Source: Nanobdellota archaeon
Lineage (GTDB): Archaea > Nanobdellota > Nanobdellia > Woesearchaeales > JAGLGH01
Direction: 5' to 3'
Assembly (NCBI GenBank): GCA_034723595.1
Contig: JAYEPB010000078.1
Location: forward strand, 9,592-73,591
Length of the DNA stretch: 64,000 bases
The translations under genes and the position numbers were made by a program. How positions within the stretch are numbered: the first letter of the stretch is position 1; every line of letters starts with the position of its first letter. This document shows positions 5,802 through 16,824 of this stretch, piece after piece. The notes under the pieces were generated by a model. The model was not told the origin of the DNA, ran no database searches, and was given only the letters and a program-made list of their open reading frames with translations.

Positions 5802-6275
5802 ATGGCAAAGAAAAAAAAGAATATAGTTATGTACTTCTCAATGTTTGGCAAGAATGAGAAGATAGCAGATATCATTTCAATAGAGTTTGATGCGCTGAAG
5901 ATAAAGATTGCTACTTCTGGCTGGGGGCTGCTGAAGATACCAATGCATATGCTTAGAGGACTTTTGGAAAGAGATGTTGTGATGATTCCTAACACAAATC
6001 TGCAGGATTATAATATGATTTATATTGGCGGTCCAGTCTGGGCAGGCAAGCCATGCCCTGCACTTATGGACTTGATTAGGAAGATCCATATTAAAGGCAA
6101 GAATGTTGTGCTGTTCCTTACTGCTAAAGATGATTTTGGAAATGCTGAAGAACTGCTGAGAGAAGCTGTGAAGAAAAAAGGCGCAGAAGTGAAGGCATTG
6201 TTCAGGTTCCTGACAAGCGAGAATGAGGAAAAGATTAAAAAAAGATTCAAAGAGAAAGGATTAAGTTTTGACTGA
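5802..6275 (+). CDS. flavodoxin-like fold protein
   Basis: Alternating beta-alpha pattern and a segment IYIGGPVWAGKPCPALMDLI resembling flavodoxin/WrbA-type FMN-binding proteins. Weak call. Confidence 0.3.
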   Translation: MAKKKKNIVMYFSMFGKNEKIADIISIEFDALKIKIATSGWGLLKIPMHMLRGLLERDVVMIPNTNLQDYNMIYIGGPVWAGKPCPALMDLIRKIHIKGKNVVLFLTAKDDFGNAEELLREAVKKKGAEVKALFRFLTSENEEKIKKRFKEKGLSFD

Positions 6276-8315
6276 TGATGCTGGTGCTCCTTGAATAGTA
6301 GATTTGTTACTTACTTTTTTACCATAAATGTAAATATACTTCCAGGCAAATCCCTGTTTTCTTTCTATCTTTACATCAAATCCACACTGGCTAAATAGAT
6401 CTTTGATTGCTTTATTATCAGAAAGCCAATCTATGTTAGGAATTATATCAAAAAATTTGTTATACTCAACAAAACATATCTTTGCGCCTTTCTTAAGCAG
6501 TTTGTTCATGTGTGTCAGCACCTTGACAGGATTCTGAACATAACCGAGCATGCCTACAGATACGATGACATGCACATTAGGGACATCAGGATGCACTCTT
6601 TTATGATGAAGAGGGTCATGTAGTAAAGTAATATGCTTATGGCCTCTTTTCTCCATCCTCTTTTTGGTTATTGAAATATCTCGTTCACAGATATCTGTTG
6701 CATAGATTCTTCCTTTCTTCCCTACTTCTTCAGCAAGATGCATTGTGAGTGTCCCGACAGAACACCCAAATTCAAGAACTGTTTTTCCATGTATATTACC
6801 TATTAGCTTTATGACCTCTTTCCTCACTTTCACAGGCAGCATCAGGCGTTCAGTAAAGAGTGCTACATAGGCCAGCACATTATTGGTCTTCCTGACAGCC
6901 TTTGGATTATAATACATCTCAAGAAGGAAGTATATCGGCAGACCTACAAAAATCAGCGAGGCACCTAATCTCAGAATGTGCGTAGCGCCAGCTGTTTCTT
7001 TTATCCACATCCCTAATAAAAATATATTAAAGAGAATCACAATAAGAGGTCCAACCCTTGCAAAAGGAACCCGGTAGTATCTTTTGAGATTAGGTTTCTT
7101 ATCCCTTAATAAAGTCAGGCTGAATAAGACAGCAGAATACATTATCAATACTATTGGCACCAGAAGGTGCAGCAGAGTCAGGTAAGATCCTGCAGCGATA
7201 AAGACCAGAATAGAACTGATGATAGTCTGCAGTATTATGGCTTTGTGAGGTGTATAATATTTTGGATGTATCTTTGCAAATTGAGGAAGGAAAAGCTTGT
7301 CTTTTGCCATGGCAAGTATCAGGCGCGGTGCTGCAATGATCCATCCTGCAACTGATCCAATAATAGCCAGATAAACAAGCAATGTAAATATCGTTGAACC
7401 AATTGCCCCAAAGTGGACTGCTGCAAGGTCTGAAAGCGGCGCAGAGGACTCGCCAAATGTCTGCCAGGGAATCGCACTCATGGATGTTATAACAAATAAT
7501 AAGGAGATGACTGCTATTATAATGGTTCCATAAATTAATGCTTTAGGCATGACTCTTGCTCCATCTTTAGTCTCAGCAGCAAGAAAAGTGGAAGTCTCCC
7601 ATCCAAAAAATGTTTCTGCGACCAAAAATATTGTAACCATTATAGAAGATATAGGAAATACAAAAAAAGGGCTGAGGGTTGATGTCTTAAATGATGCTAA
7701 TCCTGGAATAATCAGCGCAAGCAGAGTGCCTATAGTGATGAAAGCAAAAGTCACGAGCATTACTGAACTTGTTTTCATTCCATGATATGCGATAAAGTTA
7801 AATATGAATATGAATGTAAGTGAGAAAAGTATCTGGGCCCAGACTATTTGCCCCGGAATAAGATATTGTATTGCTCCTACAACAAGCATAGCGATTGTGA
7901 TATTCCCAGCTATCAGTGTGCCCCAGCCGATTATGAAACTCCCGAACCTGCCATAAGCCTGCTTGCAGAATTCATATATCCCTCCTTCTTTTGGAAACAT
8001 GCTTGTTAACTCAGCAAAGCACATCGCGATATATATAGCAATGATTGAAAGTATGGCCCATGAAATCAATGAAGCAGGGCCTGCATGCTTGGCTCCTAAA
8101 GCAGGAAGGAAAAATATTCCAGTTCCCATTATAGAATTGATTGTGATTAGAAGGATTACTTTGAAGCTAAGTACTTTCTTCAGTTCTGTCATGGTGTGGA
8201 TATGGTGTTGAATGTATATAAAATGTTCGTTTTTAAAAATTTTGTTTTGTAACATTTTTAATGCTTGAATTGGAAAGAAAGAATATTTAAAAGAAAAAAT
8301 ATTTTTGGCTTGCAA
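6261..8315 (-). CDS. APC-family amino-acid permease fused to a C-terminal class I SAM-dependent methyltransferase domain
   Basis: About 460 aa with roughly 12 TM helices typical of amino acid/polyamine permeases. C-terminal domain carries MTase motif I VLEFGCSVG, post-I acidic IYATDI and motif II HVIVSVGMLGYV. Confidence 0.6.
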   Translation of the reverse strand: MQAKNIFSFKYSFFPIQALKMLQNKIFKNEHFIYIQHHIHTMTELKKVLSFKVILLITINSIMGTGIFFLPALGAKHAGPASLISWAILSIIAIYIAMCFAELTSMFPKEGGIYEFCKQAYGRFGSFIIGWGTLIAGNITIAMLVVGAIQYLIPGQIVWAQILFSLTFIFIFNFIAYHGMKTSSVMLVTFAFITIGTLLALIIPGLASFKTSTLSPFFVFPISSIMVTIFLVAETFFGWETSTFLAAETKDGARVMPKALIYGTIIIAVISLLFVITSMSAIPWQTFGESSAPLSDLAAVHFGAIGSTIFTLLVYLAIIGSVAGWIIAAPRLILAMAKDKLFLPQFAKIHPKYYTPHKAIILQTIISSILVFIAAGSYLTLLHLLVPIVLIMYSAVLFSLTLLRDKKPNLKRYYRVPFARVGPLIVILFNIFLLGMWIKETAGATHILRLGASLIFVGLPIYFLLEMYYNPKAVRKTNNVLAYVALFTERLMLPVKVRKEVIKLIGNIHGKTVLEFGCSVGTLTMHLAEEVGKKGRIYATDICERDISITKKRMEKRGHKHITLLHDPLHHKRVHPDVPNVHVIVSVGMLGYVQNPVKVLTHMNKLLKKGAKICFVEYNKFFDIIPNIDWLSDNKAIKDLFSQCGFDVKIERKQGFAWKYIYIYGKKVSNKSTIQGAPASSVKT

Positions 8316-8817: not shown

Positions 8818-9306
8818 ATGGGAGAGCCATTACCACTTATTGTTAAATTACAAGAATATACAGATAAATACGAGGGATTAATGAAAAGAATAGATGAATC
8901 CTATCTGAATGAGAATTTTGGAACATTGCTAGGTTATATCCTTAGTGCGACCCCAGACCAATTGAATCCAGGAGGATACACTAATGATGAAAAAGAATTC
9001 GCACAAATGTTGGGAGATTATTATAATATAAATAAAAAGGCAGAGGATTATTTAGAAAACTTGAGAAATAAAAACGGAAAAGATTATCCAATAGACTTAA
9101 GAGCCCTAGCTTCTAGAAAAGAGATAAGAATGGGTGATGAGATAATGCTAAATGCAATAGATAAAAACAAAAGTTTAATCGAATGCCCGTTAGATGATAT
9201 AATAAATGAGTATAGTGAAAGAATTATTAAAGTAGAAAATATAGAAGATACGGATTATAAATATAGATTCATAGATCTCATTATCTCAAGATATTGCTGG
9301 GATTAA
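8818..9306 (+). CDS. hypothetical protein, paralog A of the 10212 gene (shared DESYLNENFGTLL.YIL N-terminal block)
   Basis: ORF. The first ~40 codons and the leader are near-identical to those of 10212-10637 at nucleotide level; the rest is diverged. Ends RYCWD, with no Gly-Gly. Confidence 0.5.
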   Translation: MGEPLPLIVKLQEYTDKYEGLMKRIDESYLNENFGTLLGYILSATPDQLNPGGYTNDEKEFAQMLGDYYNINKKAEDYLENLRNKNGKDYPIDLRALASRKEIRMGDEIMLNAIDKNKSLIECPLDDIINEYSERIIKVENIEDTDYKYRFIDLIISRYCWD

Positions 9307-9331: not shown

Positions 9332-10027
9332 TTATTTTTTTAAAAATTTTATTCCAATCTGTTCTTCAATCTTTTTCCAGTTATAAATCAAAGCATCCTC
9401 ACACATATTGCATAACTTCAAAGTATCAGGATAATAATTAAATACACAACTATGTGTTACATTATAGGCTTTAGCAAGCTTCTTAGAACCATTTATTGCA
9501 TCCCCATGATGTTCTCCCAGTCCTAAAAGATGAACTGCTTCGTGTTTTGCAATTTTCTTTATAAAATCTCTTGCAGATTGTCTCTCTTTTGGAAGGTACA
9601 TATAAATAATTCCACTTCCAAATGCACCAAATCCCCAATCATAGTTATTATATGGGGCTTTTTGATCAATTATAATAACAGATGCATGAAAGTTACTGGT
9701 TCTGTTTTTATTCATATAAACTTCATCAGCAGAATAACTAATAGATTCAAAAAGATTACCCCCACATCTTAAATTATTTACAGCAGTTTCAACAGAATTA
9801 TCTACATAAGAATTCTTTACTTTAAAATCCATATTGAGTTCGTGAATTAATTCAAATAAGCCTTGTTTAACTGGTTCAACACAATAATCTGGAACATTTG
9901 AATAATTAAAGATTCCAATCTCCTTGCTCATAATCCAAGCAGGAAGTCTACTAAGTCTAATGTCAAGATAATTCATATACCTCCATTTCTGTTTGTAGAT
10001 TTCAGATTCATCCTTGTTATTTATCAT
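9332..10027 (-). CDS. HExxH zinc metallopeptidase, archaemetzincin-like
   Basis: HEAVHLLGLGEHH zincin motif followed by a Cys cluster (SCVFN...CNMC), reminiscent of the archaemetzincin HExxHxxGxxxH plus CxxC arrangement. The spacing is off by one residue, so the family call is tentative. Confidence 0.45.
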   Translation of the reverse strand: MINNKDESEIYKQKWRYMNYLDIRLSRLPAWIMSKEIGIFNYSNVPDYCVEPVKQGLFELIHELNMDFKVKNSYVDNSVETAVNNLRCGGNLFESISYSADEVYMNKNRTSNFHASVIIIDQKAPYNNYDWGFGAFGSGIIYMYLPKERQSARDFIKKIAKHEAVHLLGLGEHHGDAINGSKKLAKAYNVTHSCVFNYYPDTLKLCNMCEDALIYNWKKIEEQIGIKFLKK

Positions 10028-10211: not shown

Positions 10212-10637
10212 ATGACAAAACCATTTGTAGCAATGTTGGGTGATGACTCAAATAGAAATAAAGATATGAGACTTGTAAAAACAGTAGATGAATCTTATCT
10301 AAATGAAAATTTTGGAACATTATTGGATTATATTCTTAATCCAGGAGTTGATGAATTAAATTCAGGATATAATGATGATGAGACAAATTTTGCACAAACC
10401 TGGAAAGATCTTTATGATCAGAGCAAAAGCGAACCTAAAATTGAGATTGGTCTCTGCGCAATAGATAGAAATAAGCAATTTGTTCCATGTCCACTTCATA
10501 AGGTTCTTGGAGATTATAGTGATAGGTTTATAAAACCGATGAATGAGATTGGTGAAGATGGAAATGAATATAAGTATAATGGAATTGAATTGATTATAGC
10601 TGATCTTAGTGAAGGAGGATCAATGAGGTATTTGTAA
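10212..10637 (+). CDS. hypothetical 141-aa protein, paralog B. Gly-Gly lies 5 residues from the C-terminus (...ADLSEGG-SMRYL). First gene of the E1/JAB operon.
   Basis: ORF. Its stop overlaps the start of the next gene (TAATG). Shares the DESYLNENFGTLL block with 8818. Confidence 0.5.
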   Translation: MTKPFVAMLGDDSNRNKDMRLVKTVDESYLNENFGTLLDYILNPGVDELNSGYNDDETNFAQTWKDLYDQSKSEPKIEIGLCAIDRNKQFVPCPLHKVLGDYSDRFIKPMNEIGEDGNEYKYNGIELIIADLSEGGSMRYL

Positions 10638-12103
10638 TGATATCTCAAATTCCTAAAGTATTTCTTGAAAATTTTAGAGAAAGTGATGAGTCATTCCTTA
10701 TACATCAAGGAATGATTTACACTTTACATTGTCCAACCAGTCAAAATAGTCTAAATAAATTATTCTATGCAAATAGAGATTTTAATCTATTCCAATCTGA
10801 AGATATTGACACATTACAGGAAGAATATCTTAATCATAGTAGGGATTCTATTGAGAACTTAGTAAGTGATTATATTCAGCATAATTATATTGAAAAACTT
10901 GAAAGATTAAAAATCAACATAGATTCTCAAAAGAATCTATTCCAAGAAACACAAAACAATTCAATTGAAAAATTAATTGTATTAGATATCTTTGATAAAT
11001 TTTGTAATCTCTGTAATGTCTCTAATTCTAATGGAAATAAGAATAACAAATCCAAAACTGTAGCTTCAAATTTAAAATTATCTGCAATCAATAAAACAAT
11101 GGGATTATCATCGTCATTAGATTATGCTGCTTTTGGGAAAACACCTTTTGCCAGATACCTAAATTCTATTTCTATGATGGTTCTTGGTCAAAGGGCTTAT
11201 TCCCTAAGGAAAGAAAATTCTATAACAAATAATTATGTCCAAATAAAAAATCATAAATATAAGATTTGTGAGTCCCAAACATTTGATAGATTTATTTTAG
11301 ATTACAAAAAGATTATCTCAAAGAGCATAACATCTGTGATTCAAAAGGAATCTAGTAACTATATAAATCAATTAAGCGAATTTAAAAAAGCGAAAACTGA
11401 ACTTGATATACTAATTAATCAAGAAAATCAGTTTAATGAATTAAAAGAAAGGGAAAGACGAGCAGAGATGTTCAATTGCACAATTGGGTTTAAGGCTCGA
11501 GGGAAAAATAATTCTCAGGATATATATGATATTTATATTAAATTAGATCCATATATCATGAAGAAAGATGATAATTATTATCAGTTTGATACTGTTAAGA
11601 TAGGTACTTCTCTAGCAGTATCTAGGAATCAAATTAAAATTACTAATAAACCAGAAGTTCTTACAAAAGAATATCACCACCCTTTTGTATGGGATTGGTT
11701 GAAAATTTGTGATAAGGGTTATAAAAAAGATAGATATGAAAGAGAGGGTGTTAATTTTGAAAATTTTAATGTTGATTATCTGGATGGTTTTGCGAGAAAT
11801 GTCGCAGTAGCTTTGAATGTTGCAAAAAAGATAATTGAGTATGGGTATAATGGGTCAAGAGTTTCTCCCGTCAAAAAGCTTAGTCCTTCAAAATTCCCAG
11901 AAGAATACATAAGGGGAGGTAAATCAGCAGCTTTGTCTACAGGTATAAGGATTGTTGATAATGATCTTTGGAAGGAAAATATTAACCCAAAAAAAAGCAA
12001 TATCAGATCAATTACGAGGATTAATACAGATAATCTTGAGAGTTATATGGTAAACTATCTCCAAAACAATCAGAATAATCTAATCTATTCTGAGGGGATG
12101 TGA
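10637..12103 (+). CDS. hypothetical 488-aa protein with a possible degenerate E2 (UBC)-like motif HPFVWDWLKIC
   Basis: Translationally coupled on both sides. The segment EYHHPFVWDWLKICDKG has the H-P-x...C spacing of the UBC HPN-x7-C active-site loop, but no other E2 landmarks could be verified. Confidence 0.45.
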   Translation: MISQIPKVFLENFRESDESFLIHQGMIYTLHCPTSQNSLNKLFYANRDFNLFQSEDIDTLQEEYLNHSRDSIENLVSDYIQHNYIEKLERLKINIDSQKNLFQETQNNSIEKLIVLDIFDKFCNLCNVSNSNGNKNNKSKTVASNLKLSAINKTMGLSSSLDYAAFGKTPFARYLNSISMMVLGQRAYSLRKENSITNNYVQIKNHKYKICESQTFDRFILDYKKIISKSITSVIQKESSNYINQLSEFKKAKTELDILINQENQFNELKERERRAEMFNCTIGFKARGKNNSQDIYDIYIKLDPYIMKKDDNYYQFDTVKIGTSLAVSRNQIKITNKPEVLTKEYHHPFVWDWLKICDKGYKKDRYEREGVNFENFNVDYLDGFARNVAVALNVAKKIIEYGYNGSRVSPVKKLSPSKFPEEYIRGGKSAALSTGIRIVDNDLWKENINPKKSNIRSITRINTDNLESYMVNYLQNNQNNLIYSEGM

Positions 12104-13581
12104 AAAAAATGATTTCATATATTCAGGATGATAGGCAAGTAAGAATTGATGGGTGGGGGCAAGATGGTCAGGAAAAAATAAGAAAAAGTAAACCATTAGT
12201 TCTAGGGTCAGATGTTCTTTCCCAAATGTTGTTAGTAAATTTGGCAGGACTTGGAGTAGGCAATATTATGCTTATGGATAATCAGAGAATAGGCAGAGAA
12301 GATAGATCTAACTTTCTTTATAAAAAAGAATATCAAAATGACATTTTTATAGGAAATAAGCGTGGAAAACAAATAAAAAAGATAGTAGAAAAAATAAATG
12401 ATAATATATCATTAATGTATAGACATTCTAAATTTCGGGAAGCATGGTTATATGATTTCAAGCCTTCAATAATATTTGATACTACAAATAATGTTATATC
12501 AAAAAGAGAAGCATTGTCATATAGCCTAAAATATGATATTCCCTTTATCAATATATGCGCTGATGAAAATAAAGCAATAATTACTGAATTTAATCCAAAA
12601 GATAGATGCAAAAAAGATAATGACCTTTTAGAATCTATAATCCTCAAGGAATTCTGCGATACAGAACAAGGACCAATTCCTTGCGGGGTTATAGCAGGTC
12701 TTGCAGCAGAAGAATTAAGAAAGCATGCAATAAATCTGAATAATAAAGAATCTGATAATCCTCTTAAATCTGGAGAAAGAATAATATATAATTTATATTC
12801 AGATTCTAGAGTTTCATTAGATTCAGAAGTTAATTCAAATCCATTCAGCTATCCTAGAGATGTTAAAGCTCTTTTGATTGGGGCAGGTGCTATCGGTAAT
12901 TATGTTGCATTAAATCTCTCACTTATTGGCGTAGGGAAGATTGATGTTCTTGATGGAGATGTAATTAAAGATCATAATCTAAATAGGCAGTTTGCATTCT
13001 ATGATAGAATAAAAAAAGATAAGGCAAAAGTGTTGAGTGAAAGAATAAAAGAATTCAACCCAGCTATCAAATCAGATTATTTTATAAAGATGCTTGATTC
13101 AGGGGATGGCGATATTTTTTCAAAGAACAATCCTGATGAAAAATACGATTTAGTATTTGGTTGTGTAGATAATCTTGAAGCAAGGAAACTTATTAATCAA
13201 TTTTGCGTGCGAAATTCCATTCCTTTAGTTGATGGAGCAACAGATGCTTTAAAAGGTCAAATAGCTGTTTATGACCCCAGAAAAAAAAGATGCTTGGATT
13301 GTCAATTTGATTATGATTATCGGATTGAACAGCGTAATGAAAGAAGGAAGAATTGGATTCAACAAAATGGCAATAGTTGTATTGACACAACAAACCCCAG
13401 TGTAGTTATCCCTAATATAATTATAGGAAGTGCTATGGTTGGAGAGGGATTGAGAGTTCTTTATGATAAATATAAACAAAAACCTCTAGAAGGATATTTT
13501 AAATATAATTCTAATGGGGGCGAGCGTATATCAAAAACAATGTTTAGAGGATATTTAAAAAATTGCGAGGCAGAAAAATGA
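12100..13581 (+). CDS. E1-like (ThiF/MoeB/Uba-type) activating enzyme with a tandem degenerate N-terminal and intact C-terminal adenylation domain
   Basis: N-domain RQVRIDGWGQDGQEKIRKSKPLVLGSDVLSQ...GVGNIMLMD mimics the E1 N-terminus, but the GxGxxG loop and the NLNRQ motif are lost. C-domain KALLIGAGAIGNYVALNLSLIGVGKIDVLDGDVIKDHNLNRQFAF, then GCVDNLEAR...VDGATDALKGQI, CxxC (RCLDC) and a candidate catalytic Cys in NSCIDTTNP. Confidence 0.7.
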   Translation: MKKMISYIQDDRQVRIDGWGQDGQEKIRKSKPLVLGSDVLSQMLLVNLAGLGVGNIMLMDNQRIGREDRSNFLYKKEYQNDIFIGNKRGKQIKKIVEKINDNISLMYRHSKFREAWLYDFKPSIIFDTTNNVISKREALSYSLKYDIPFINICADENKAIITEFNPKDRCKKDNDLLESIILKEFCDTEQGPIPCGVIAGLAAEELRKHAINLNNKESDNPLKSGERIIYNLYSDSRVSLDSEVNSNPFSYPRDVKALLIGAGAIGNYVALNLSLIGVGKIDVLDGDVIKDHNLNRQFAFYDRIKKDKAKVLSERIKEFNPAIKSDYFIKMLDSGDGDIFSKNNPDEKYDLVFGCVDNLEARKLINQFCVRNSIPLVDGATDALKGQIAVYDPRKKRCLDCQFDYDYRIEQRNERRKNWIQQNGNSCIDTTNPSVVIPNIIIGSAMVGEGLRVLYDKYKQKPLEGYFKYNSNGGERISKTMFRGYLKNCEAEK

Positions 13582-14741
13582 TTTCAGAAAAATTCAAACA
13601 GTTTGTCGAAAATTTCGATGTAGAAGGATATATTAGAAGATTTGAAGAAAGTGATTATTATAAAGAAAAATTTGTGCCAAAGATAAATAATATGATCAAA
13701 TCTCATTATCAAAGAGAAATAAAAAAAAGAGTAGAAAACTATGAAGGGAATAATTATGTTTATCCTGAATTCAGTAAAGTTAAGATAACGCAAAAAGCTT
13801 TAGATAAAGGGAAGTATATATCAAAAAGAGTTTGTGAATTTGCGGATTCAGATTATGAAATATATATGTATATGATTGGTGATAACTCCAATAAAGAACC
13901 TATCGTAGATGATTTTTATATAGGCATTGATCAAACTGTAGAACCTGATTATTGTAAAATCAGCCCATTCGGTAAAATTCGTACTTCGTATGATATAACA
14001 GATAATTTAGAAAAAAGAATTTTGGGGTGGAGTCATTCTCATGGTTCAATAGACACATTCCATTCTCGTAAAGATAGAAAAAACCTTCAAAAATTTGTCG
14101 CATCATATGGACTTTCTAAAAAGATTGATCTTTTAGACGATGAAGAAGGCGATGACCAATTATTGCATGATGTTTATTATACACCTAGTTTGGTATTTAA
14201 CAAATATATGTGGGAAACTAATATTCTGCCTTTTGCAGGAGTAGCTTTAGATTATACAAAATTTGGTAATAAAAAAAATACGAAATTCCATCTTAATGAT
14301 GATGTGGAGATTGAAGTAATTAAGAGTGATCCATTAACTAAAAAAGAGATGGAAGATATAGATGAAATGATTCTGGATAGAGTTAATCTTAAAGGTTTAG
14401 GTAAACTTAGAGATATTTATGAAAAAAGAACACTTGAGCAAAACTCTCCTATGGATAATGATATATCCTCTATTTTAGAAGAGCATAGTCCTGATTATAA
14501 TTCTTTAGATAAAAGTAGTCTTATAGGTCTGATTAGGAAACAAGAATCAAAATATAAGAGTCTTTTTGAAAAGTATGGAACAATTGTTAAAGATTATAAC
14601 TATTTACAGGATAAATATCATGATTTAAAAAATAAAAATAGTTCATTGAGATCAATTGTTATGAAATGTAAAAAATATATCAAGAATCAGGTCAAACTAA
14701 AAGGAGTTAAGCACCAACGAGAAAATGTCAAAAATAATTGA
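13578..14741 (+). CDS. JAB/MPN+ (JAMM) metallopeptidase, deubiquitinase-like
   Basis: JAMM motif H-x-H-x7-S-x2-D present as HSHGSIDTFHSRKD, with an upstream Glu candidate. ATG at 13578 overlaps the E1 stop (ATGA). The ORF track starts earlier, at a TTG at 13563. Confidence 0.65.
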   Translation: MISEKFKQFVENFDVEGYIRRFEESDYYKEKFVPKINNMIKSHYQREIKKRVENYEGNNYVYPEFSKVKITQKALDKGKYISKRVCEFADSDYEIYMYMIGDNSNKEPIVDDFYIGIDQTVEPDYCKISPFGKIRTSYDITDNLEKRILGWSHSHGSIDTFHSRKDRKNLQKFVASYGLSKKIDLLDDEEGDDQLLHDVYYTPSLVFNKYMWETNILPFAGVALDYTKFGNKKNTKFHLNDDVEIEVIKSDPLTKKEMEDIDEMILDRVNLKGLGKLRDIYEKRTLEQNSPMDNDISSILEEHSPDYNSLDKSSLIGLIRKQESKYKSLFEKYGTIVKDYNYLQDKYHDLKNKNSSLRSIVMKCKKYIKNQVKLKGVKHQRENVKNN

Positions 14742-14790: not shown

Positions 14791-16824
14791 ATGATAAGAA
14801 GAAAAATAGAACAAATATTAGCGAATGAAAATAAAAGAATTAATGTAAATAATGTTAATCAAAATAGTCTATCGAATAATCTTCTTGCAGTGTATTTTTT
14901 AGATAATATTCCTGATAAAAATCTTGCTATTGATGATTTGATTATTAATGATTTTTTGTATAAATTTATATCTTCTGAAGAGAAGAATAAGATTTATAAT
15001 CTTAATGAGGTAATCTCAAAATTATCAAAAGTAGATGAGAATCAAGTGAATAAATCAAAGAGTAAGAAAATCTTAATGATCCCTAAAATAAATATCCAAA
15101 TGACCTTAGCGATAGATTCTTATCTTGATTTGATTAAAAATGAAGAATCTTTGGAAATTATAACTGGATTAAAGTCAAAAGATGATTTAAAGGCATTACT
15201 GTTGATTGATAGAATTTCTGGTACTCAGAAGTATAGTGATTTAGAGTTTGTTATTGATAAAAAAGATTGCGTTGAGAAAAATGCGATTATAGCTGCAAAG
15301 TATTCAACAGAACTATCAGCCCTCTCAAAATCAGATTCTAACCTAAAATCTTCATATCAGATATTAAATAATCTTCCATCTGATTTTACTCTGACTGCTA
15401 TAAAACAAATCAAGAAGATAAATCAGGAAGTCACAGATTCCAGTATTGATTATAAAATAATATCAAAGAATCCAAAACTAATAAAAAAGATAAATGCCGT
15501 AAAAGGCAGGTATAATAATTTAAAGAGACGTACAAGCAGCTGGTTGGATAAAGAATTAAATATATACCTTGAAAAGGAATATAAAAAGATTAATTTCAAT
15601 ATATCCAGAATGACAGACCTGGATTTGGCTATTGAAAAGACAGATAATGCTTCCAGGCAGTTGAATAAGATTAAAAATAAATATAAAGCAGCAGGCATAA
15701 CTCCTGCTAAATTTAATAAGAAATATTCTCAGCTTTCTGCCCAGCAAAATAAGCTTAAAAGTTATAATGTATTAAAAAAGGGATTTGTGAAGAATTGCGC
15801 AATAATCAAAAGAGAAAGGCAGCTGATAGAAGATAAAGGGGTAGATGATATTGCTGATTTAGTATCATTAATAAATAAAGAAAAAAACATATTGAATAAT
15901 GCAGATATATCAGAAACAAAGTTTAGTGATTTAGATACTGCTAAGCAGGATTATATCAATGAATCAAAAAGGTTTAAAGATGCAGTAAATCTGGAGATCA
16001 GTTCAATCAAGCAATATTTGAATCATAGCTGTGATATATTGATTGAGAAGGCTGGTAAATATACTGGTCTATCTGGACTTTTTGGTGAGAGAGATAAAGA
16101 ATCATTGGTAGGGTTGAAAGATGAGGCAAAAAGCTTAGCTGATCAGATTTTATTGGTGAAAAAAGAGTTTGGGATACCTGATTATGTGATTCAGAAAAGC
16201 AATGAGCTTAGTAATTTAGTCGATAAACTTATTAAGAAAAATAAGTATACAATTTCTCAAAAGCTAAAGAGAGGTCTTAGTTATAAATATGCAGAAGCTG
16301 GATTGTTGGTTTCTAATTATCTCCCTTCAAAAGAGATTATTGGCGCAAGTGTTTTTTCTAGTTATCTAGAGAATGATAAATATAATATAATTCAAAAAGG
16401 CAATAAGACTATGAGTTTTGAGCAAAATTTGTCAAATCTTCCTCCTATAAATGATTTCAGCAGTGATTATATGGGTAGTTTAAAACAAAGTGACAATAAG
16501 ACTGCAAGAAAAACTTATGGTCTTGCATCAAGTCGCAAAGGGAAGAGACTAATCAATATCTTTGCCGCGGGATTAATATTCTCAATAACTTCTCTTGGGA
16601 TTTATGGGATTGTTAATCCTCAATCAACTTATGTATTGCAAAAGGAAGTAGAAACTATTGAAAAAACTGAAGATTATTCTAGCATCCATAAACCAGAACA
16701 TACAATATATGATTCTACAATTAGGGATATAGATAAGATTGTTGATAAAACGCAAAGAACATATGAATCAACAATAAGAGATTTAAAAAAGATGTTCAAT
16801 GGGAATCTTATAACACCAGATTAA
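14791..16824 (+). CDS. large Lys/Asn-rich coiled-coil protein with a C-terminal TM anchor; last gene of the E1/JAB operon
   Basis: 677 aa of low-complexity helical sequence with one hydrophobic helix near the C-terminus (LINIFAAGLIFSITSLGIYGIV). 50 bp downstream of the JAB gene, same strand. Confidence 0.45.
   Translation: MIRRKIEQILANENKRINVNNVNQNSLSNNLLAVYFLDNIPDKNLAIDDLIINDFLYKFISSEEKNKIYNLNEVISKLSKVDENQVNKSKSKKILMIPKINIQMTLAIDSYLDLIKNEESLEIITGLKSKDDLKALLLIDRISGTQKYSDLEFVIDKKDCVEKNAIIAAKYSTELSALSKSDSNLKSSYQILNNLPSDFTLTAIKQIKKINQEVTDSSIDYKIISKNPKLIKKINAVKGRYNNLKRRTSSWLDKELNIYLEKEYKKINFNISRMTDLDLAIEKTDNASRQLNKIKNKYKAAGITPAKFNKKYSQLSAQQNKLKSYNVLKKGFVKNCAIIKRERQLIEDKGVDDIADLVSLINKEKNILNNADISETKFSDLDTAKQDYINESKRFKDAVNLEISSIKQYLNHSCDILIEKAGKYTGLSGLFGERDKESLVGLKDEAKSLADQILLVKKEFGIPDYVIQKSNELSNLVDKLIKKNKYTISQKLKRGLSYKYAEAGLLVSNYLPSKEIIGASVFSSYLENDKYNIIQKGNKTMSFEQNLSNLPPINDFSSDYMGSLKQSDNKTARKTYGLASSRKGKRLINIFAAGLIFSITSLGIYGIVNPQSTYVLQKEVETIEKTEDYSSIHKPEHTIYDSTIRDIDKIVDKTQRTYESTIRDLKKMFNGNLITPD

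What the first reader, a model, noticed from the sequence alone, without database searches (positions are those of the whole stretch)
12100..13581. Single-chain pseudo-dimeric E1: degenerate N-terminal plus intact C-terminal adenylation domain
Prokaryotic E1-like enzymes (MoeB, ThiF, archaeal UbaA) are normally homodimers of one adenylation domain. This 493-aa protein has two ThiF-like domains in tandem. The first keeps the canonical E1 N-terminal RQxRxxGWG..GQ.K element but has lost the GxGxxG nucleotide loop and the NLNRQ motif. The second has GAGAIG, D-x-D, NLNRQFAF, GCVDN, CxxC and a Cys in SCIDTTNP reminiscent of the Uba1 P-x-C-T active-site context. This inactive-plus-active arrangement mirrors the eukaryotic Uba1 and heterodimeric SAE1/UBA2 logic.
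Basis: partly seen in the sequence, partly recalled or inferred. Interest (0 to 1): 0.7.

Follow-up and report, generated by a model that had tools for sequence, protein, structure and literature searches.

The report
Minimal two-domain E1 in DPANN archaea
This gene encodes a ubiquitin-activating-type (E1) enzyme built from a dead and a live copy of the same domain in one chain, sitting in a four-gene ubiquitin-like tagging operon found only in tiny DPANN archaea; the design was known from eukaryotes and one bacterial defence system, not from these archaea.

Summary
ORF 12100-13581 (+) has two ThiF/E1 domains (Pfam E 2.8e-16 and 2e-43). The N-terminal one has lost the GxGxxG loop, the NLNRQ arginine and the Mg-aspartate but keeps the N-terminal arginine segment. 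The C-terminal one keeps every adenylation motif, a CxxC and an invariant crossover-loop Cys427.

About 29 species-level genomes, all DPANN archaea, carry this E1, nearly always in one co-directional cluster:
- a small protein ending in GG plus a variable tail (candidate Ubl, fold inferred only);
- a protein with an invariant Cys in a Y-x-HPF-x(6-9)-IC motif (E2-like, moderate evidence);
- the E1;
- a JAB/JAMM peptidase with a complete motif.

The most likely function is a Ubl-E1-E2 conjugation cascade with JAB processing, working like Bil or Caldiarchaeum systems. It fails membership tests for both: there is no CYS domain, no UFD, no CEHH-type E2, no RING protein and no defence-model hit. The single-chain architecture itself is not new, because BilD was published in 2023/24. 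I rate it a new variant of a known kind, of moderate to high interest.

The parts
12100..13581 (+). E1 gene (493 aa from GTG 12100; probably 490 aa from ATG 12109): single-chain IAD-AAD enzyme
12130..12753 (+). Inactive adenylation domain (IAD), residues 11-218
   Evidence: Pfam ThiF E 2.8e-16. G-loop equivalent is G36-S-D-V-L-S41. R296 and D357 equivalents are lost (N71/F72, T128/N130). The IAD profile hits MoeB, ThiF, the Uba1 domains, SAE1 and NAE1
12133..12144 (+). N-terminal arginine segment R12-Q-V-R15 (candidate arginine finger donated by the IAD to the AAD site)
   Evidence: An Arg lies in this segment in 27 of 28 family members; the exception is N-terminally truncated. The role is inferred by analogy with BilD Arg9 (PMC10557695) and, from my own recollection, a MoeB arginine
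12856..13524 (+). Active adenylation domain (AAD), residues 253-475
   Evidence: Pfam ThiF E 2e-43; PDB phmmer hits Uba1/Uba6 AAD at E ~2e-16; all catalytic motifs invariant
12880..12897 (+). Nucleotide loop GAGAIG (261-266)
   Evidence: G261 and G263 in 28/28, G266 in 27/28
12976..12990 (+). NLNRQ motif (293-297)
   Evidence: N293 and R296 in 28/28
13168..13170 (+). Asp357 of GCVDN (Mg/ATP aspartate)
   Evidence: 28/28
13291..13302 (+). CxxC (C398, C401), first half of the predicted Zn site
   Evidence: 27/28 each. The partner C-x-C at the C-terminus is present in most members (C489 16/28, C491 22/28). The window protein has C489 but A491
13378..13380 (+). Cys427, candidate catalytic (thioester) cysteine in the crossover loop
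   Evidence: Invariant 28/28. It lies in a flexible loop (pLDDT < 50) between helix 405-423 and helix 436-454. The spacer from C401 is 10-25 residues across the family
10212..10637 (+). Candidate ubiquitin-like modifier precursor (141 aa), G135-G136 at 10614-10619 followed by the tail SMRYL
   Evidence: Family found beside the E1 in 18 of 29 loci. GG followed by a 0-15 aa variable tail in most members; one ends exactly at GG. The stop overlaps the next gene's start (TAATG). A beta-grasp fold is not shown
10637..12103 (+). E2-like protein (488 aa). E2-like domain at residues 283-432 (11483-11932). Motif Y346-x-H-P-F...C358 at 11672-11710
13563..14741 (+). JAB/JAMM metallopeptidase (392 aa from TTG 13563; probably 387 aa from ATG 13578, overlapping the E1 stop as ATGA). 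E99 at 13857-13859; H158-S-H160-x7-S168-x2-D171 at 14034-14075
   Evidence: Weak Pfam Prok-JAB hit (E 0.009). E99, H158, S159, H160 and D171 are invariant and S168 is at 90% or more in 22 sequences. Present in 25 of 29 loci. Junction sequence
8818..9306 (+). Paralogue of the Ubl candidate (162 aa) without the C-terminal GG
   Evidence: 45% identity to the 141-aa protein; ends ...ISRYCWD

Best explanation
The gene encodes a monomeric, minimal canonical-type E1.

Domain roles:
- The N-terminal ThiF domain cannot bind ATP. It serves as the structural partner (IAD) and probably donates an N-terminal arginine to the active site.
- The C-terminal ThiF domain (AAD) binds Mg-ATP and adenylates the C-terminal glycine of a small modifier.
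- The invariant Cys427, in the short flexible crossover loop, then takes the modifier as a thioester.

The E1 is the third gene of a translationally coupled operon, which most likely works as follows:
1. The 141-aa protein is made as a precursor ending in GG-SMRYL.
2. The JAB/JAMM peptidase trims the tail to expose GG, and can later remove conjugates.
3. The E1 activates the modifier.
4. The modifier passes to Cys358 of the E2-like protein. That protein's roughly 280-residue N-terminal region would select targets, since no E3 is encoded.

Shown here: the two-domain anatomy, motif loss and retention, the predicted pseudo-dimer fold, the complete JAMM motif, and operon conservation in DPANN archaea.

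Inferred: the beta-grasp fold of the modifier, E2 catalysis, the thioester chemistry, the monomeric state, the targets and the biological role (antiviral defence or protein regulation).
For: E1 anatomy:
- Both halves hit Pfam ThiF, and the halves are homologous to each other.
- Over 28 homologues the ATP motifs are 27-28/28 in the AAD and absent from the IAD.
- An N-terminal Arg is present in 27/28, and the crossover spacer is 10-25 residues.

E1 fold:
- The AF2 model has pLDDT 85.8 and pTM 0.91.
- Foldseek top hits are whole-chain UBA7, UBA6 and UBA1.

Operon:
- Gene junctions overlap or are 6 nt apart.
- Of 29 DPANN loci with this E1, JAB is adjacent in 25, the E2-like gene in 24 and the GG-protein in 18, all on the same strand.
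- The JAMM motif is invariant.
- The GG plus variable tail is conserved.

Precedent for the same logic: BilABCD (PMC10557695) and Caldiarchaeum Ub/E1/E2/Rpn11 (PMC5654768).
Against: - No fold evidence exists for the modifier. hhalign against ubiquitin gave prob 0.7% and the PDB profile search found nothing.
- The window E1 has lost one of the four predicted Zn cysteines (A491).
- The pseudo-dimer rests on a predicted structure, not a solved one.
- Several profiles used for the neighbourhood count were built from the same loci.
Confidence: 0.8

Rival explanations
1. It is a true member of the bacterial Bil (ISG15-like, BilABCD) antiviral defence family, acquired by DPANN archaea, and tags virus structural proteins.
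Against: - BilD is not among the 60 listed PDB sequence hits, of 75 and 78 found, for the full protein or the IAD profile.
- There is no ~80-aa CYS domain.
- The E2 motif is HPF...C, not BilB's CEHH (PMC11354881).
- PADLOC hits are only to CBASS Cap2 models, on the AAD; the neighbours hit nothing.
- Flanking genes are housekeeping.
- No copy was found in IMG/VR viral contigs.
Confidence: 0.12
2. It is the Caldiarchaeum/Asgard (eukaryote-type) archaeal ubiquitin system in a divergent form.
For: The host is archaeal. The pro-modifier has a GG plus tail and a JAMM/Rpn11-like peptidase beside it, as in C. subterraneum (PMC5654768). The best sequence hits of the AAD are eukaryotic Uba1/Uba6. The E2-like motif has the canonical His-Pro-x...Cys order.
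Against: - The modifier shows no detectable similarity to ubiquitin.
- Neither E2 nor Ub is recognised by Pfam.
- No RING-finger gene is seen: no other ORF of 60 aa or more lies between the operon genes on the + strand.
- There is no UFD or CYS domain on the E1.
- All carriers are DPANN, not Aigarchaeota or Asgard.
Confidence: 0.05
3. It is a sulfur-carrier activating enzyme of the MoeB/ThiF/UbaA type that underwent a tandem duplication. It serves cofactor or tRNA thiolation rather than protein conjugation.
For: The highest NCBIfam scores are to ThiF and MoeB models. MoeB and ThiF rank high in PDB searches. The short crossover loop with a single Cys resembles ThiF.
Against: - All NCBIfam scores are far below cut-off (146.9 against 275 bits for ThiF).
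- There is no rhodanese domain.
- The conserved partners are a JAB peptidase and a Cys-bearing E2-like protein, not ThiG/ThiH/MoaE-type genes.
- The modifier has a processed GG tail.
Confidence: 0.04
4. The N-terminal domain is not a silent partner. It is a second working site, or the protein acts as a homodimer of two-domain chains.
For: D60, at the beta2 acidic position, and a K/R at 87-88 are retained in the IAD.
Against: The IAD has no glycine-rich loop, no NLNRQ arginine and no Mg-aspartate in any of 28 members. The model packs the IAD against the AAD as in BilD and UBA1.
Confidence: 0.03

Closest known systems
E1 BilD of bacterial Type II BilABCD (Ensifer aridi; PDB 8TYZ; PMC10557695)
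   Different: Only 14% identity. There is no ~80-residue helical CYS domain; Cys427 lies 10-25 residues after the CxxC. The IAD is still recognisable as ThiF by Pfam, whereas BilD's was annotated as E2 family C. The partner E2 has HPF...C rather than CEHH. The hosts are DPANN archaea. No defence-model hit was found and no antiviral role is shown.
Eukaryotic canonical E1s: Uba1/UBA6/UBA7 (single chain) and SAE1-UBA2, NAE1-UBA3 (heterodimers)
   Different: This protein is half the size. It has no FCCH, SCCH/CYS, four-helix bundle or UFD domains.
Homodimeric E1-like enzymes MoeB, ThiF, archaeal UbaA, UBA5, BubCD, Cap2
   Same: They share the adenylation fold and motifs. The short crossover loop carries the reactive residue directly, as in ThiF and UBA5.
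Caldiarchaeum subterraneum Ub/E1/E2/srfp/Rpn11 operon (PMC5654768)
   Same: It is an archaeal operon in which a GG-tailed pro-modifier is processed by a JAMM peptidase and then passed through E1 and E2.
   Different: That system has a recognisable ubiquitin, a UBC E2, a RING E3 and an E1 with a cysteine domain and a UBL domain. None of these is detectable here.

Membership tests
E1/ThiF adenylation superfamily (PF00899) | Match to the family model above its gathering score | tested here: met
   204 bits for the whole protein; 59.9 bits (N-half) and 148.7 bits (C-half) against a cut-off of 28.1
E1/ThiF adenylation superfamily (PF00899) | GxGxxG loop, NLNRQ Arg, conserved Lys and Mg-Asp in the catalytic domain | tested here: met
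   All are present in the AAD and invariant or near-invariant in 28 homologues
Canonical (Uba1-type) E1 architecture | Inactive plus active adenylation domains forming a pseudo-dimer | tested here: met
   Motif loss in the N-terminal domain. AF2 pTM 0.91. Two-domain superposition on UBA1 (439 residues) and BilD (382 residues). This rests on a prediction, not an experiment
Canonical (Uba1-type) E1 architecture | Catalytic cysteine carried on an inserted CYS (FCCH/SCCH) domain | tested here: not met
   The C401-C427 spacer is 10-25 residues in all 28 members. The model shows one helix (405-423) and a loop
Canonical (Uba1-type) E1 architecture | [quoted passage not shown] | tested here: not met
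   The chain ends about 18 residues after the AAD match. The model shows only two short strands and no extra domain
Bil system (BilABCD / ISG15-like) | E1 with IAD-AAD plus a mobile ~80-aa helical CYS domain | tested here: not met
   IAD-AAD is present, the CYS domain is not (definition from PMC10557695 and PMC11601596)
Bil system (BilABCD / ISG15-like) | Operon with a Ubl, an E2 and a JAB peptidase | tested here: inconclusive
   JAB is met. The E2-like assignment is moderately supported. The Ubl is inferred from the GG tail and position only
Bil system (BilABCD / ISG15-like) | E2 (BilB) with the CEHH catalytic motif (Type II) | tested here: not met
   The conserved motif is Y-x-H-P-F-x(6-9)-I-C, with no conserved E/H/H after the Cys (motif definition from PMC11354881)
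Bil system (BilABCD / ISG15-like) | Recognition by defence-system profile models | tested here: not met
   PADLOC 2.0 hits only CBASS Cap2 E1-E2 models, on the AAD. Nothing was found for the other four proteins. I did not verify that this PADLOC release contains Bil models
Bil system (BilABCD / ISG15-like) | Protection against viruses by tagging a virion protein | not testable with these tools
   Needs experiments. The genomic flanks are housekeeping genes
Caldiarchaeum/Asgard eukaryote-type ubiquitin system | Modifier with detectable similarity to ubiquitin | tested here: not met
   hhalign against ubiquitin gave prob 0.7%. There is no PDB or Pfam hit
Caldiarchaeum/Asgard eukaryote-type ubiquitin system | Small RING-finger E3 in the cluster | tested here: not met
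   No further + strand ORF of 60 aa or more lies within 8.8-16.8 kb of the window beyond those described. Related loci were not screened for RING motifs
UBC/E2 superfamily | His-Pro-Asn loop followed 7-10 residues later by the catalytic Cys | tested here: inconclusive
   H348-P349-F350 (Phe in place of Asn) and invariant C358. The motif aligns with the UBE2W HPHVYSNGHIC segment
UBC/E2 superfamily | UBC fold | tested here: inconclusive
JAB/JAMM metallopeptidases | E-x(n)-H-S/T-H-x7-S-x2-D motif | tested here: met
   E99, H158, S159, H160 and D171 are invariant and S168 is at 90% or more in 22 sequences. The Pfam Prok-JAB match is below cut-off (16.3 against 25 bits)
Homodimeric MoeB/ThiF/UbaA-type E1-like enzymes | Single adenylation domain per chain; match to an equivalog model | tested here: not met
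   There are two domains per chain. All NCBIfam scores are far below cut-off

The most novel reading that the evidence does not exclude
This DPANN family may be a third, independent lineage of pseudo-dimeric E1, or a surviving early stage of the canonical one. In that reading the IAD-AAD fusion arose before any catalytic-cysteine domain or UFD was added. The operon would then be a self-contained, E3-less protein-tagging system special to ultra-small symbiotic archaea, used for example against viruses or in dealing with the host cell. If a phylogeny placed it at the base of the eukaryotic, Asgard and Bil E1s, it would bear directly on how the ubiquitin E1 was assembled.
Probability: 0.2. Interest if true: 0.8.

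Novelty: new variant of a known kind. Interest (0 to 1): 0.6.

Why it matters
The origin of the eukaryotic E1, one dead and one live adenylation domain in a single enzyme, is usually traced from homodimeric MoeB/ThiF-type enzymes. Bacterial BilD showed in 2023/24 that the asymmetric design exists outside eukaryotes.

This window adds a compact archaeal version with nothing but the two domains and a loop cysteine. It sits in a conserved Ubl/E2-like/E1/JAB operon whose E2-like and modifier proteins match no curated family. That gives a small (~490 aa), probably monomeric model E1 for studying what the inactive domain contributes. It adds a data point on whether the domain duplication happened once or several times. 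It also points to an unstudied protein-tagging pathway in DPANN archaea, whose cell biology is almost unknown.

Tried and rejected
Searches that found nothing useful:
- Pfam, NCBIfam and PADLOC on the four neighbouring proteins gave no family.
- The word-indexed homologue search with the E2-like profile returned only 5 proteins, and with its C-terminal domain only 1. The exhaustive representative search was needed (185 representatives).
- The modifier profile against PDB sequences, and hhalign against ubiquitin, gave no signal.
- hhalign of the two N-terminal repeats against E2s was negative.
- The viral contig scan found only one single-domain relative.
- Rfam and tRNA scans of the window were empty, so taxonomy came from homologue labels.
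- Literature searches for DPANN, Nanoarchaeota or Woesearchaeota together with ubiquitin, E1 or JAMM found no description of this system. The 2009 E1 natural-history paper is not held.

Ideas rejected:
- The N-half as rhodanese or an unrelated Rossmann domain.
- The 677-aa downstream protein as part of the system; it is conserved only in the closest relative.
Full report
**Observation**

The ORF exists as described: 12100-13581 on the + strand, GTG start, 493 aa. An ATG at 12109, preceded at 11 nt by GAGGGG, is the more likely start. The closest homologues are 490 aa.

The whole protein matches Pfam ThiF in two stretches. Scanned separately, the N-half matches at E 2.8e-16 (residues 11-218) and the C-half at E 2e-43. 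The halves align to each other by BLASTP at E 3e-5, with 20% identity over 152 residues.

**Family and motif conservation**

A homologue search found about 29 full-length relatives of 455-575 aa. Where labelled, they are Nanoarchaeota or Woesearchaeota. A scan of one genome per species found the two-domain protein in about 29 genomes. All are DPANN archaea, including the complete genome of Archaeon GW2011_AR15. Several MAGs carry 'Methanosarcinales' labels that I take to be placeholders. The window's own neighbouring protein is on record as a hypothetical protein from a Nanoarchaeota MAG.

In the 28-sequence alignment:
- The C-terminal domain keeps G261, G263, D282, D285, D287, N293, R296, K308 and D357 in every member. 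C398 and C401 are kept in 27/28, and C427 in 28/28.
- The N-terminal domain has G36-S-D-x-L-S/A/G where the glycine loop should be.
- The N-terminal domain has no equivalent of R296 or D357 in any member.
- An arginine in the N-terminal R-Q-x-R segment is present in 27/28.

The N-terminal domain profile finds MoeB, ThiF, both Uba1 domains, SAE1 and NAE1 with similar scores. It is a mildly diverged E1 domain with no special affinity to eukaryotic inactive domains.

**Structure**

The AlphaFold2 model, built with the family alignment, has mean pLDDT 85.8 and pTM 0.91.

| Search | Match | Score | Aligned residues | Identity |
|---|---|---|---|---|
| Foldseek | UBA7, UBA6, UBA1, whole chain | TM 0.60-0.69 on the query | - | - |

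The two domains are therefore predicted to pack as in known single-chain E1s.

The region between the CxxC and Cys427 is one helix (405-423) plus a low-confidence loop. Across the family the spacer is only 10-25 residues. There is no inserted catalytic-cysteine domain, and there is no C-terminal UFD. Most family members end in C-x-C, which with the CxxC would form the Zn site described for BilD. The window protein has lost one of those four cysteines.

**Genomic context**

The E1 is the third of four tightly packed genes:
- The 141-aa gene's stop overlaps the start of the 488-aa gene (TAATG).
- The E1 ATG follows the 488-aa gene's stop by 6 nt.
- The next gene's ATG overlaps the E1 stop (ATGA).

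Profile searches over ORFs of 29 related loci find a JAB protein next to the E1 in 25, the 488-aa family in 24 and the small protein in 18. All lie on the E1 strand. The usual order is small protein, 488-aa family, E1, JAB. Several loci are cut by contig ends. The 677-aa downstream protein is conserved only in the nearest relative.

Flanking genes are ordinary: an amino-acid permease-methyltransferase fusion, a KaiC-like ATPase, a rhomboid protease and a Na/Ca exchanger.

**The partner proteins**

- **JAB peptidase.** The downstream protein has the full JAMM signature. E99, H158, S159, H160 and D171 are invariant and S168 is near-invariant in 22 sequences, although its Pfam match is below threshold.
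- **Small protein (candidate modifier).** The family has a conserved N-terminal segment and a roughly 70-residue C-terminal part ending in GG. A tail of 0-15 residues follows, and one member ends exactly at GG. This is the pattern of a pro-modifier trimmed by a JAMM peptidase, as shown for BilA/BilC and for Caldiarchaeum ubiquitin/Rpn11 (PMC10557695, PMC5654768). Its fold is not shown: there was no PDB, Pfam or ubiquitin similarity.
- **488-aa protein (E2-like).** The family has 185 representatives at 50% identity in an exhaustive search. Many are short proteins that match only the C-terminal domain.
  - It has one invariant residue, Cys358, within Y-x-H-P-F-x(6-9)-I-C.
  - The only PDB sequences its profile touches are E2 enzymes, aligned on their HPxVYSNGHIC active site. 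These hits are not significant on their own (E ~1).
Its N-terminal repeats give 0.1%.
  - Its AF2 model (pLDDT 85.3) shows two N-terminal units, each a four-stranded meander plus a very long helix, followed by a beta-rich domain with helices.
  - I read it as an E2-like protein with a large N-terminal extension, with moderate confidence.

**Mechanism**

The most likely mechanism has five steps:
1. The JAB peptidase exposes the GG of the modifier.
2. The AAD adenylates it, with the IAD acting as scaffold and arginine donor.
3. Cys427 in the mobile crossover loop forms the thioester.
4. The modifier moves to Cys358 of the E2-like protein.
5. The E2-like protein's N-terminal region selects targets, as no E3 gene is present.

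The anatomy, motif pattern, predicted fold and operon conservation are shown here. The chemistry, the modifier's fold, the targets and the biological role are inferred.

**Comparison with known systems**

It works like Bil and like the Caldiarchaeum system, but it fails defining tests for both.

| Feature | Bil / BilD | Caldiarchaeum system | This operon |
|---|---|---|---|
| Catalytic-cysteine domain on E1 | ~80-aa helical CYS domain | cysteine domain present | none |
| E2 catalytic motif | CEHH (PMC11354881) | recognisable UBC E2 | HPF...C |
| Modifier | BilA beta-grasp | recognisable ubiquitin | no detectable Ub similarity |
| E3 | none predicted | RING srfp | none seen |
| Other | PADLOC gives no Bil hit here, only CBASS Cap2 models on the AAD | UBL domain on E1 | no UFD or UBL domain |

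It is not a MoeB/ThiF/UbaA-type enzyme, because it has two domains and scores far below all equivalog cut-offs. No copy was found in viral contigs. Full-text searches found no description of such a system in DPANN archaea.

**Verdict**

One correction applies: the single-chain inactive/active E1 is no longer unknown in prokaryotes, since BilD has it.

What is new here is a minimal version, two domains and a loop cysteine with nothing else. It sits in a DPANN-restricted operon whose modifier and E2-like proteins belong to no curated family. I rate it a new variant of a known kind, with interest 0.6.

Noticed in passing
window 9332-10027 (-): A 231-aa protein between the two Ubl-like genes carries HEAVHLLGLGEHH followed by cysteines. 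This is a zincin or archaemetzincin-like HExxHxxGxxH motif, yet it has no significant Pfam or NCBIfam hit.
   Followed up: no
window 8818-9306 (+): A 162-aa paralogue of the candidate modifier (45% identity) lacks the C-terminal GG; it ends ...ISRYCWD. It also has an internal ~30-residue insertion. It may be a non-conjugatable copy.
   Followed up: partly
window 10637-11480 (+), residues 1-270 of the 488-aa protein: The AF2 model shows two similar N-terminal units (residues 1-127 and 170-269), each a four-stranded meander followed by a 50-residue helix. They have no detectable similarity to E2s. Many family members lack this region altogether, for example the 219-aa version in L001 and short representatives.
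   Followed up: partly
L006, L009, L010, L020, L033 (loci around the E1): Several related loci carry two JAB paralogues, usually one on each side of the E1. L006 has a 1033-aa JAB-containing protein.
   Followed up: no
alignment A1 columns 401-460; proteins P0014, P0015, P0016: A subclade of the E1 family has a ~55-residue insertion inside the active adenylation domain, between the KA..L..RIK helix and the GCVDN strand.
   Followed up: no
window 13564-13572 (E1 residues 489-491): The window E1 and its two closest relatives have lost one of the two C-terminal cysteines (A491; Cys in 22 of 28 family members). The predicted Zn site therefore has three Cys ligands here.
   Followed up: partly
window 14791-16824 (+): The 677-aa protein after the JAB gene has a C-terminal hydrophobic helix and no family hit. 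It is conserved only in the nearest relative (L005), so it is probably not part of the core system.
   Followed up: partly
window 6261-8315 (-) and L004 521-2413 (-): An amino-acid permease fused to a class I methyltransferase domain lies upstream of the operon, both in the window and in the 62%-identical relative's contig.
   Followed up: no
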